From the NCBI RefSeq assembly GCF_056712565.1, contig NZ_CM160072.1: a DNA stretch of 64,000 nt. One strand, 5' to 3'. This document shows, one piece after another, positions 1 to 3,000 of this stretch. A program made the position numbers. The stretch's first letter is position 1. The number at the start of each line of letters is the position of its first letter.

Positions 1-3000
1 CGGTGGAAAAAGCCCGCCCGATCCTGGCGGCTGCACCACTGGCGGATGCCGGACCATCACTCCGTGATCAGATCATGGCCCTGGATGAGGCAAAAGGGGC
101 TGAGGCGCAGGCTGAACAGCTGGCTGCCTGCCCGGGAATGACAGTGGAGAGCGCCCGGGCTGTGCTGGCTGCGGGATCAGGTAAGGCAGAACCGGTCTCT
201 GCATCCACAACCGCCATGTTTGAACATTTCATGGCGAACCATTCACCGGCAGCGGTACAGGGTGGCGTGGCACAGACGTCAGCAGACGGTGATGCGGACG
301 TGAAAATGCTCATGGCCATGCCATGAAGTCAGTGCTGACCATCAATAGGAGGTTTTTACAATATGGTGACGAAAACCATCACTGAACAGCGTGCGGAAGT
401 ACGTATTTTTGCCGGTAATGATCCGGCTCATACCGCCACAGGCAGCAGCGGGATTTCCTCGCCAACACCGGCACTGACGCCCCTGATGCTGGATGAAGCC
501 ACCGGGAAACTGGTGGTCTGGGACGGACAGAAAGCCGGTAGTGCGGTTGGCATACTGGTACTGCCGCTTGAAGGCACAGAGACGGCGCTGACGTATTACA
601 AGTCGGGAACCTTTGCGACGGAGGCAATCCACTGGCCTGAAAGTGTGGATGAACACAAAAAGGCCAACGCCTTTGCTGGCAGTGCCCTGAGTCACGCGGC
701 GCTGCCGTAACACGTTATCAGGCCACCGCGGTGGCCTGACTGATTTCTGAATGAAAGGAACTGATTTATGGGATTGTTTACGACCCGCCAGTTACTCGGT
801 TATACCGAACAAAAAGTTAAATTTCGTGCGCTGTTTCTGGAGCTGTTTTTCCGCCGTACGGTGAATTTCCATACCGAAGAGGTGATGCTGGACAAAATTA
901 CCGGAAAAACGCCGGTGGCGGCCTATGTCTCCCCGGTTGTTGAAGGAAAAGTGCTGCGTCATCGTGGTGGTGAAACCCGCGTGTTGCGTCCGGGCTACGT
1001 CAAGCCGAAACACGAATTTAATTACCAGCAGGCGGTTGAGCGCCTTCCTGGTGAAGATCCATCTCAACTGAATGATCCGGCTTACCGCCGTCTGCGTATC
1101 ATTACCGATAACCTCAAACAGGAAGAGCACGCGATTGTCCAGGTGGAAGAAATGCAGGCGGTAAATGCTGTGTTGTATGGCAAATACACCATGGAAGGAG
1201 ACCAGTTCGAGAAAATTGAGGTCGATTTTGGCAGGTCGACGAAGAATAACATCACTCAGGGTAGTGGTAAGGAGTGGTCAAAACAGGATCGTGACACGTT
1301 CGATCCTACACATGATATTGACCTCTACTGCGACCTGGCCAGCGGTCTTGTGAATATTGCCATTATGGACGGTACCGTCTGGCGTCTTCTGAATGGCTTT
1401 AAGCTGTTCCGCGAAAAACTGGATACCCGTCGCGGTTCAAATTCTCAACTCGAAACGGCAGTGAAAGATCTGGGCGCAGTGGTGTCCTTCAAGGGGTATT
1501 ACGGCGATCTGGCCATTGTGGTGGCGAAAACGTCTTATATAGCAGAAGACGGTACCGAAAAACGTTATCTTCCAGATGGCATGCTGGTTCTGGGGAATAC
1601 TGCTGCAGATGGGATCCGTTGTTACGGTGCCATTCAGGATGCTCAGGCGTTGTCCGAAGGTGTGGTGGCCTCTTCCCGTTATCCGAAACACTGGCTGACG
1701 GTAGGGGATCCCGCCCGTGAATTTACCATGACGCAGTCCGCGCCGCTGATGGTGTTGCCGGACCCGGATGAGTTTGTGGTGGTACAGGTGAAATAATCCG
1801 TGAGCGGGGGCGAAATGCCCCCGTGTCTTTTTTCACAGGGGGCTGATATGGCAACGAAAGAGCAAAATCTGAAACGGCTTGATGAACTGGCCCTGATTCT
1901 GGGGCGTGAGCCGGATATATCCGGGAGTGCCGCAGAGATAGCGCAGCGGGTGGCAGAATGGGAAGAGGAAATGCAGTCATCCGGCGATGATGTACAGGTT
2001 ATGAATATGGATATCCGGGAGCGGGAAACCGCGGCTCATGATGTTCGTGAGGAAACATCCGGCGCGTTAACGCGCATCAGAGTTCTGACCTGCCTCCATC
2101 TCTGTGGCGTTGATGGTGAAACGGGGGAATCCGTTGAGCTTGCGGATGTTGGTCGGGTGATTCTGATTATGTCCTCAGATGCAAAAACACACGTTGATGG
2201 TGGAATGGCTGTTTATGCGTGATTTTCAGAATGCCTTTGATGCCGCCCTTGCCGGGGTGGACAGTACGATTGTTGAAGTGATGGGCATCAGTGCGCAGTT
2301 CACCTCCGGTGCACAGCGTGGCGGCGAGGTTCATGGCGTTTTTGACGATCCGGAGTCGCTGGGTTTTGCCAGTAGTGGGATCCGTATTGAAGGAAGTAAC
2401 CCGTCATTATTTGTGCTTACGGATACGGTTTGTGCTGTACGGCGTGGTGACACGCTGACCATTAACGGCGAGATGTTCTGGGTGGACCGTGTTTCTCCGG
2501 ATGACGGAGGGAGTTGTTATCTCTGGCTCAACCGGGGGCAACCACCTGCCGCCAGCCGTCGCCGCTGAAAGGGGGATGTATGGCCATAAAAGGTCTTGAG
2601 CAGGCCGTTGAAAACCTCAGCCGTATCAGCAAAACGGCAGTGCCTGGTGCCGCCGCAATGGCCATTAACCGCGTTGCTTCATCCGCGATATCGCAGTCGG
2701 CGTCACTGGTTGCCCGTGAGACAAAGGTACGCCGGAAACTGGTAAAGGAAAGGGCCAGGCTGAAAAGGGCCACGGTCAAAAATCCGCAGGCCAGAATCAA
2801 AGTTAACCGGGGGGATTTGCCCGTAATCAGGCTGGGTAACGCGCGGGTTGTCCTGTCCCGACGCAGGCGTCGTAAAAAGGGGCAGCGTTCATCCCTGAAA
2901 GGTGGCGGCAGCGTGCTTGTGGTGGGAAACCGTCGTATTCCCGGCGCGTTTATTCAGCAACTGAAAAATGGCCGGTGGCATGTCATGCAGCGTGTGGCCG

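What the first reader, a model, noticed from the sequence alone, without database searches (positions are those of the whole stretch)
1805..1833. Strong hairpin plus T-run directly after the major capsid gene
A GC-rich 7-bp stem with a T6 run lies between E and FI. It is a likely partial terminator that sets the expression ratio of capsid to downstream genes.
Basis: seen in the sequence. Interest (0 to 1): 0.3.

Follow-up and report, generated by a model that had tools for sequence, protein, structure and literature searches.

The report
Terminator-shaped RNA hairpin after capsid gene
A real, selectively maintained RNA hairpin with a run of T sits right after the major capsid gene of a phage-21-type prophage; it is an ordinary and already recognised kind of element, and whether it works by stopping transcription or by protecting the capsid message from decay is still untested.

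Summary
Seven G:C pairs (1805-1811/1817-1823) form a stem that extends to 10 pairs (1802-1827, one bulge). T6 (1828-1833) follows it directly. The element lies 5 nt after the stop codon of E and 14 nt before the ATG of FI. No shuffle of the late region reproduces the combination. It is under selection as plus-strand RNA: 23 variants pair in every cell, and all five stem substitutions are C-to-T changes that give G.U. It is 100% identical where the flanking genes are 75-92% identical. Thirteen of 15 lineages with an E-family capsid gene carry an unrelated GC hairpin at the same place. Many have UUCG or GNRA loops and most lack a real U-tract. The N15 record already annotates its counterpart as a putative terminator. 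The operon is driven by a Q-type antiterminator, which blocks terminator hairpins. A perfect terminator shape also sits between the equimolar genes D and E in lambda. I therefore favour a read-through hairpin that blocks 3' decay and stabilises the D-E message, terminating only unmodified polymerase. Partial termination remains possible. Nothing here is experimentally shown. It is a new member of a known kind, of low to moderate interest.

The parts
768..1796 (+). Major capsid gene (lambda E / phage 21 gene 7); stop codon TAA at 1794-1796
   Evidence: ORF listed. Pfam PF03864 Phage_cap_E, E = 2.5e-65. 99.7% identical to phage 21 gp7.
1802..1811 (+). 5' arm of the hairpin (GAGCGGGGGC). The core is 1805-1811; G1804 makes a G.U pair; 1802-1803 are the outer extension.
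   Evidence: Fold. 224 of 224 cells are paired in 23 distinct variants.
1812..1816 (+). Loop GAAAU
   Evidence: Loop variants GGAAT and GATAT occur in relatives, while stem changes are wobble-only.
1817..1827 (+). 3' arm of the hairpin (GCCCCCGU, bulged G1825, then UC)
1828..1833 (+). T6 run (U-tract) that directly follows the extended stem
   Evidence: Kept as T6, T7, T5G, TGTTTT or TTTATT in 23 variants. The T6-plus-structure combination arises in 0 of 300 shuffles.
1837..1850 (+). FI ribosome-binding site (AGGGGG, 1837-1842) and ATG (1848-1850)
   Evidence: The phage 21 records annotate the RBS and start here. Pfam PF14000 Packaging_FI for 1848-2219.
718..739 (+). Companion hairpin TCAGGCCACC-GCGG-TGGCCTGA, 7 nt after the stop of D/shp, with a weak T tail
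   Evidence: Second-ranked terminator-like site. Folds. Lambda, N15, Gifsy-1 and K279 have hairpins in the same gap.
13610..13634 (+). Companion hairpin GGGCGCC-AGAAAT-GGCGCCT plus TTTTT, 18 nt after the stop of J
   Evidence: Top-ranked site; sequence.

Best explanation
The element is an RNA hairpin with the shape of an intrinsic terminator, maintained by selection in the plus-strand late transcript. During lytic growth the late operon is transcribed by Q-loaded RNA polymerase, which reads through it (inferred). The hairpin then folds behind the polymerase as an internal feature of the long late mRNA. There it blocks 3'-to-5' exonucleases, after endonuclease cleavage in the U-rich spacer downstream or after the rare termination event. 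The upstream D-E (head shell) segment would therefore outlive the FI-and-beyond segment and be translated more (inferred, not shown). For polymerase that has not been modified by Q, for example stray transcription in a lysogen, the same hairpin plus U6 should act as a genuine terminator (inferred from its shape). The shown steps are the structure itself, its selection as RNA, its positional conservation and its Q-type operon context. The inferred steps are read-through, the decay barrier and any effect on protein ratios.
For: RNA-level selection on the plus strand is seen in 23 distinct variants. Every cell of the 10-pair helix is paired, and five stem positions vary, all by C-to-T changes that give G.U and none by G-to-A. 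By my own arithmetic the chance of this under neutrality is (7/15)^5, about 0.02. The hairpin plus T6 is 32/32 identical in PhiR5_1 and PhiR12_2, where the 3' end of E is 90-92% identical and FI is 75-80% identical. Thirteen of 15 E-family lineages have an unrelated GC hairpin 0-25 nt after the capsid stop codon, and in 11 of them it is in the top 0.06-0.6% of 34-nt windows. The lambda/N15 family is GGCCC-tetraloop-GGGCC with compensatory outer pairs (A-U/G-U/G-C and U-A/C-G). Ten cells are changed on both sides, which 0 of 500 shuffles reach. Hyperstable UUCG and GNRA loops occur in several lineages. Most post-capsid hairpins lack a U-tract, so the hairpin, not termination competence, is the common denominator. 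The three gaps longer than 50 nt in the window's late operon (after D, E and J) each hold one of its strongest plus-strand hairpins. The Q context comes, and the nozzle mechanism from PMC9388147. A canonical terminator shape between the equimolar D and E genes in lambda, N15 and K279 shows that such sites are compatible with full downstream expression.
Against: No RNA 3'-end, half-life or protein-ratio data were available for this element or its homologues. The papers most likely to hold them were not in the library. From my memory only, and unverified here, Sampson, Hendrix, Huang and Casjens (PNAS 1988) attributed lambda late-gene ratios mainly to translation initiation. If so, the effect of any decay barrier would be limited. 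The T run is itself well kept in the phage-21-type variants. A pure decay barrier would not need it, which suggests that termination competence also matters. The Q context is taken from a 99.9%-identical prophage in another genome, because the window starts inside the head genes.
Confidence: 0.45

Rival explanations
1. It is a partial (leaky) intrinsic terminator during lytic growth. A fixed fraction of late transcripts ends at the U6 run, so FI and later genes receive fewer transcripts than E.
For: The geometry is canonical: a 10-pair GC-rich stem followed directly by U6. The T run is conserved in 23 variants. The N15 counterpart is annotated as a putative rho-independent terminator. The phage L paper lists partial termination as one possible role of terminators inside late operons (PMC8022706). 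T7 has a leaky terminator right after its capsid gene (my own knowledge).
Against: Q-loaded polymerase prevents terminator hairpins from forming (PMC9388147), and a Q-family gene lies upstream. Most homologous hairpins lack a U-tract. The equally terminator-like site between D and E in lambda and N15 would lower E relative to D, yet the two are needed about 1:1 (stoichiometry from established knowledge). The abundant major tail protein V is encoded downstream. The stem starts 5 nt after the stop codon, so a terminating ribosome should overlap its base (inference).
Confidence: 0.25
2. It is only a fail-safe terminator. It stops polymerase that entered the late region without Q, such as spurious promoters or read-through in the lysogen. 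It has no role in setting ratios during lytic growth.
For: It has the shape of a terminator. The phage L paper names this as the other possible role (PMC8022706). Similar sites follow D and J.
Against: This does not explain why the hairpins recur specifically after the most abundant structural genes (decoration, capsid and major tail) in many lineages. It also does not explain why many homologues keep the hairpin without a U-tract. Chi-like virulent phages have no lysogenic state, yet they keep the post-capsid hairpin.
Confidence: 0.12
3. It is a translational insulator. The hairpin keeps the many ribosomes that finish E from re-initiating at FI. In this lineage the C-rich 3' arm could also switch to pair with the FI Shine-Dalgarno sequence when the 5' arm is covered by a terminating ribosome.
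For: The hairpin lies between the E stop codon and the FI RBS. With the 5' arm removed, 1817-1825 pairs with 1834-1843 (CAC.GGGGGC, including the FI SD) at -16.8 kcal/mol. In lambda the FI SD and AUG are also predicted to lie in a small hairpin.
Against: The alternative helix is not conserved. Only 89.8% of cells pair, and SD variants (GGAGG, GGGAG, GGGAA) break it without compensation. Nothing equivalent is seen in lambda or N15. The D-E hairpin separates two equally abundant proteins, where insulation would have no purpose.
Confidence: 0.1
4. It has no function as RNA. It is a chance palindrome, a DNA-level site, a recombination junction or a dispersed repeat.
For: The FI alleles downstream differ among relatives while the hairpin is kept, so a mosaic junction lies nearby.
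Against: 0 of 300 shuffles reproduce it. Substitutions are wobble-only and specific to the plus strand. The lambda/N15 family shows covariation. It is a single copy in the window. There is no Rfam match. The minus strand has no T run after the stem.
Confidence: 0.04

Closest known systems
Stem-loops annotated in phage N15 (NC_001901.1: 5980-6004 after gene 7, 7053-7073 after gene 8, 9596-9613 after gene 13) as 'putative rho-indep. transcription terminator'
   Same: The position is the same: directly after the E-family capsid gene and before the FI homologue. A companion hairpin also follows the D homologue. Both lie in a lambda-like late operon.
   Different: The sequences are unrelated. N15 has GUGGCCC-AUUC-GGGCCAC followed by CUUUCUGG, whereas this element has GCGGGGGC-GAAAU-GCCCCCGU followed by U6. 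The N15 tail is a poorer U-tract. The window has no hairpin after its major tail gene V, where the gap is only 15 nt. The N15 annotation is itself only a prediction.
Intra-late-operon terminator at the end of the procapsid gene module of P22-like phage L (PMC8022706)
   Same: It is a predicted intrinsic terminator inside a single-promoter, Q-type antiterminated late operon, at the end of the head-shell genes. The authors state that the roles of such terminators are not known, and they list partial termination or stopping spurious transcription.
   Different: The capsid gene family and the phage group differ. I did not compare the sequences here.
T7 terminator T-phi after gene 10 (major capsid); from my own knowledge, not tested here
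   Same: It is a hairpin plus U-run right after the major capsid gene. It is leaky, and it is generally held to favour capsid mRNA over downstream late genes.
   Different: T-phi acts on T7 RNA polymerase, with no antitermination factor. Its termination has been measured experimentally, whereas here the polymerase is the host enzyme, presumably carrying Q.
Intercistronic mRNA-stabilising hairpins (malE-malF REP, Rhodobacter puf, C(UUCG)G hairpins in T4 intercistronic regions); from my own knowledge, not tested here
   Same: Each is a stable stem-loop between a highly expressed upstream cistron and a less expressed downstream one in a polycistronic mRNA. UUCG tetraloops are seen in the lambda, AH2, Sano and iEPS5-type homologues.
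   Different: This element is not a REP or dispersed repeat: it is a single copy with no Rfam match. It carries a U6 tail, which stabilisers do not need. Stabilisation has not been measured for it.

Membership tests
Rho-independent (intrinsic) terminator | GC-rich stem-loop with a stem of about 5-14 bp and a loop of 3-8 nt | tested here: met
   Seven G:C pairs plus one G.U, extendable to 10 pairs with one bulge. The loop is 5 nt. dG is -17.7 kcal/mol and z = -3.1.
Rho-independent (intrinsic) terminator | U-rich tract immediately 3' of the stem | tested here: met
   U6 (1828-1833) follows the extended stem directly. Relative to the 7-bp core it is offset by 4 nt (UGUC), so the proximal part is imperfect.
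Rho-independent (intrinsic) terminator | Sense orientation downstream of a coding region, outside any ORF | tested here: met
   The stem starts 5 nt after the E stop codon, and the T run ends 14 nt before the FI ATG. The minus strand has no T run after the stem.
Rho-independent (intrinsic) terminator | Transcript release (RNA 3' ends) at the U-tract with the polymerase that actually transcribes the operon | not testable with these tools
   No 3'-end data were accessible. The operon context predicts Q-loaded polymerase, which is reported to prevent terminator hairpins from forming.
Intercistronic mRNA-stabilising hairpin (3' decay barrier) | Stable stem-loop in an intercistronic region of a polycistronic mRNA, maintained as RNA structure | tested here: met
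   All cells are paired in 23 variants, with wobble-only substitutions specific to the plus strand. The lambda/N15 counterpart shows covariation. The hairpin recurs at this position in 13 of 15 lineages.
Intercistronic mRNA-stabilising hairpin (3' decay barrier) | The upstream cistron is required or expressed at much higher level than the downstream one | not tested
   Established knowledge only: E is the shell protein, at about 415 copies per lambda virion, and FI is a non-structural packaging factor. No expression data were examined here.
Intercistronic mRNA-stabilising hairpin (3' decay barrier) | The upstream mRNA segment accumulates with its 3' end at the hairpin, and this depends on the hairpin and on 3' exonucleases | not testable with these tools
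   This needs Rend-seq or Northern blots and half-lives in wild-type versus pnp, rnb and rne hosts, and with stem mutants.
REP/BIME or other dispersed palindromic repeat | Many copies per genome with a shared consensus | tested here: not met
   There is one copy in 64 kb at up to 3 mismatches. No Rfam family matches at 1797-1835, even at E up to 10.

The most novel reading that the evidence does not exclude
Siphophages with a lambda-E-type capsid, including virulent chi-like phages and Q-antiterminated lambdoid prophages, share a position-specific RNA hairpin module after the capsid gene, and often after the decoration and major tail genes. Its conserved job would be post-transcriptional: a decay barrier or processing mark that helps set virion protein stoichiometry. 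Termination would be an optional extra added in some lineages, such as the phage 21 type.
Probability: 0.4. Interest if true: 0.45.

Novelty: new member of a known kind. Interest (0 to 1): 0.28.

Why it matters
Head-gene DNA similar to this prophage module is widespread: 4029 of 5426 complete E. coli genomes hold a match to window 1-4000, and 1480 hold a place covering at least 80% of it. Long late operons of tailed phages must deliver proteins in ratios spanning hundreds-fold from one transcript. The role of terminator-shaped hairpins inside antiterminated late operons is explicitly described as unknown (PMC8022706). The comparison made here finds the same slot filled by unrelated hairpins, with RNA-level selection, often without a U-tract. 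That turns a vague annotation into a testable choice between attenuation and mRNA stabilisation. In practice, the element matters for annotation, because some records start FI across the hairpin. It also matters for engineering lambda-type display or packaging systems, where deleting the intergenic region could alter capsid supply.

Tried and rejected
- **Rfam.** Scans at E up to 10 over 1-6000, and at gathering level over the whole window, gave nothing at the hairpin.
- **Dispersed repeat or REP.** The element is a single copy in the window.
- **Minus-strand terminator.** The stem folds, but no T run follows it.
- **Anti-Shine-Dalgarno switch (helix B, 1817-1825 with 1834-1843).** It is predicted in this sequence at -16.8 kcal/mol. 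It is not maintained in relatives: 89.8% of cells pair, and breaks are uncompensated. I rejected it as a conserved feature.
- **Direct RNA evidence.** Ten literature searches found no 3'-end or half-life data for lambda-type late operons. The lambda ribosome-profiling paper, the Casjens-Hendrix review and the 1988 late-gene translation paper are not held. The EHEC Term-seq study cited only GEO accessions for its data and discusses no late-gene 3' ends.
- **Close-relative searches.** Four IMG/VR scans each returned near relatives of the query only. Distant lineages had to be taken from tblastn hits in phage records.
- **Q family.** The Q21 preprint gives the same Pfam number, PF06530, for both the Q21/Q933W and the Q82 families. 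I therefore assigned the family from the roughly 81% identity to Q of 933W instead.

Full report
**What is there.** Window 1-5000 is the head-gene block of a phage-21-type lambdoid prophage, 99.8% identical to phage 21 records M81255 and OL657228. The gene at 768-1796 is the E-family major capsid protein, 363-710 is the D/shp decoration protein and 1848-2222 is FI. The 51-nt gap between E and FI reads TCCGT GAGCGGGGGC GAAAT GCCCCCGT G TC TTTTTT CACAGGGGGCTGAT. The fold adds a G1804.U1824 wobble and, across a bulged G1825, A1803-U1826 and G1802-C1827, so the T run directly follows a 10-pair stem.

**Is it more than chance?**
- The 39-nt segment folds at -17.7 kcal/mol with z = -3.1.
- It is the top terminator-like site in 12 kb.
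- In 300 dinucleotide shuffles of the 16-kb late region, no T6 run was preceded by so stable a structure.
- It is a single copy in the window and matches no Rfam family.
- The opposite strand has the stem but no T run.

**Selection within the phage 21 type.** I collected 23 distinct versions of the E-FI spacer from IMG/VR contigs and phage records.
- All 224 cells of the 10-pair helix form standard pairs.
- Five stem positions vary, each by a C-to-T change that turns G:C into G.U, and none by G-to-A.
- G.U pairs work only in plus-strand RNA, so this points to selection on the transcript rather than on DNA. By my own arithmetic the chance of five out of five under neutrality is about 0.02.
- In PhiR5_1 and PhiR12_2 the hairpin plus T6 is 32/32 identical. 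The 3' end of E is 90-92% identical there, and FI is 75-80% identical.
- The T run is also well kept, as T6, T7, T5G, TGTTTT or TTTATT.

**The same slot in other lineages.** I looked after the E-family capsid gene in 15 lineages: phage 21 type, lambda, Gifsy-1, N15, phi80, two Aeromonas phages, Xanthomonas XAP3, chi-like Salmonella iEPS5, Vibrio K279, Burkholderia AH2, Xylella Sano, Ruegeria V18, and two myovirus-type phages.
- Thirteen have a GC-rich hairpin 0-25 nt after the stop codon, with unrelated sequences.
- In 11 it ranks in the top 0.06-0.6% of all 34-nt windows of the locus. The values for lambda and Gifsy-1 are 1.2% and 3.6%.
- The two lineages without a hairpin are the myovirus-type genomes, whose gaps are 10 and -1 nt.
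- The lambda/N15 group is a family of GGCCC-tetraloop-GGGCC hairpins, mostly with UUCG loops. Its outer pairs covary (A-U/G-U/G-C and U-A/C-G). Ten cells are changed on both sides, which 0 of 500 shuffles reach.
- Only a few lineages have a real U-tract: the phage 21 type, Aeromonas PhAER-5 and some metagenomic variants. The others have hairpins followed by mixed pyrimidines or nothing U-rich.

**Companion sites.**
- In the window, the three late-operon gaps longer than 50 nt are D-E (57 nt), E-FI (51 nt) and J to the next gene. Each holds one of the strongest plus-strand hairpins (718-739, 1802-1827 and 13610-13629).
- Lambda, N15 and K279 have a textbook hairpin plus T6-T7 between D and E.
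- N15, BUCT552, XAP3, iEPS5 and Sano have hairpins after the major tail gene, four of them with clear U-tracts.
- The N15 record annotates all three of its sites as putative rho-independent terminators.

The hairpins therefore follow the genes for the most abundant virion proteins.

**How it most likely works.** In a 99.9%-identical prophage of E. coli HS13-1, the head genes lie about 11 kb downstream of quuD. This gene belongs to Pfam PF06530 and is about 81% identical to Q of 933W, which places it in the Q21/Q933W family. Q21 and Q-lambda form a nozzle on the RNA-exit channel. [quoted passage not shown] Termination at this site should therefore be slight in lytic growth.

Two comparative facts point the same way. 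The perfect terminator shape between the equimolar D and E genes does not prevent expression of E. Most post-capsid hairpins have no U-tract. The feature that selection keeps everywhere is a stable plus-strand RNA hairpin after an abundantly needed gene. The best-known job of such a hairpin is to block 3' exonucleases, so that the upstream segment outlives the downstream one.

I therefore favour a two-state reading, at confidence about 0.45. Q-loaded polymerase reads through, and the hairpin then protects the D-E message. Unmodified polymerase is terminated by the hairpin plus U6. The conserved T run and the canonical geometry speak for it. A purely fail-safe terminator (0.12) and a translational insulator (0.10) are weaker. 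The insulator idea has a tempting local version, in which the C-rich arm re-pairs with the FI Shine-Dalgarno sequence at -16.8 kcal/mol. That helix is not maintained in relatives.

**Limits.**
- Nothing about RNA ends, half-lives or protein ratios was measured or found.
- My recollection that classical work assigned late-gene ratios mainly to translation initiation is unverified. If correct, it would cap the size of any mRNA-level effect.
- The Q context comes from a near-identical prophage in another genome, because the window begins inside the head genes.
A positive result would not tell termination from trimming.

**Novelty.** The element is unannotated in the phage 21 records, but it is the positional counterpart of the stem-loops annotated in N15. 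It is also of the same kind as the terminators inside late operons noted in P22-like phages, whose roles are stated to be unknown (PMC8022706). It is a new member of a known kind. The breadth of the positional conservation and the RNA-level selection shown here add modest interest.

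Noticed in passing
window 718-739 (+): A GC hairpin, TCAGGCCACC-GCGG-TGGCCTGA, lies 7 nt after the stop of the decoration gene and has only a weak T tail. 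Lambda, N15 and Vibrio K279 have a canonical hairpin plus T6-T7 in the same D-E gap, although D and E are needed in about equal numbers.
   Followed up: partly
window 13610-13634 (+): A canonical terminator shape, GGGCGCC-AGAAAT-GGCGCCT plus TTTTT, lies 18 nt after the stop of J (13591) and just before the next late ORF (ATG about 13651). It is a third terminator-like site inside the late operon.
   Followed up: partly
L089 7579-7596; L092 5817-5973; L093 8075-8176; L094 8062-8157; L097 7646-7767: In N15 and four Casjensviridae-type phages the major tail gene is followed by a hairpin, four of them with a clear U-tract and three with UUCG or GAAA loops. In the four Casjensviridae-type phages the post-capsid hairpins lack a U-tract. 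The window itself has only a 15-nt V-G gap and no hairpin there.
   Followed up: partly
window 1817-1843 (+): The C-rich 3' arm of the hairpin can alternatively pair with CAC.GGGGGC, which includes the FI Shine-Dalgarno sequence. This helix has dG -16.8 kcal/mol when the 5' arm is unavailable. Relatives with GGAGG-type SD sequences break it, so it is probably incidental.
   Followed up: yes
L090 5036 (phi80 NC_021190) and L005 1816 (PhiR12_2): These records start the FI gene 9 and 18 nt after the capsid stop codon, that is, at or inside the conserved hairpin. The N15 and phage 21 records start it after the hairpin, at an ATG with an RBS. These are likely start-codon misannotations. The window also has a GTG-start ORF at 1800 that spans the hairpin.
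   Followed up: partly
window 1848-2000 versus L004/L005: Identity to PhiR5_1 and PhiR12_2 drops from about 90% in E to 75-80% in FI, while the spacer stays 96-100% identical. Two FI 5' alleles (ATGGCAACGAAAGAGC and ATGGCAACAAAAGAAG) circulate behind the same hairpin. This suggests a mosaic junction at or just after the spacer.
   Followed up: partly
L101 14789-16326 (E. coli HS13-1, same prophage): The S49 protease/scaffold gene C upstream of the head-shell genes is annotated as frameshifted in this near-identical prophage, so that copy may be defective. The window starts inside this gene, so its own state cannot be judged.
   Followed up: no
window 16383-19832 (-) and 37629-37707 (+): By comparison with HS13-1, the sitABCD iron/manganese transporter genes lie directly beyond the prophage tail-fibre end. 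A C0299 small RNA (Rfam RF00119, 111.9 bits) lies further on in the host DNA.
   Followed up: no
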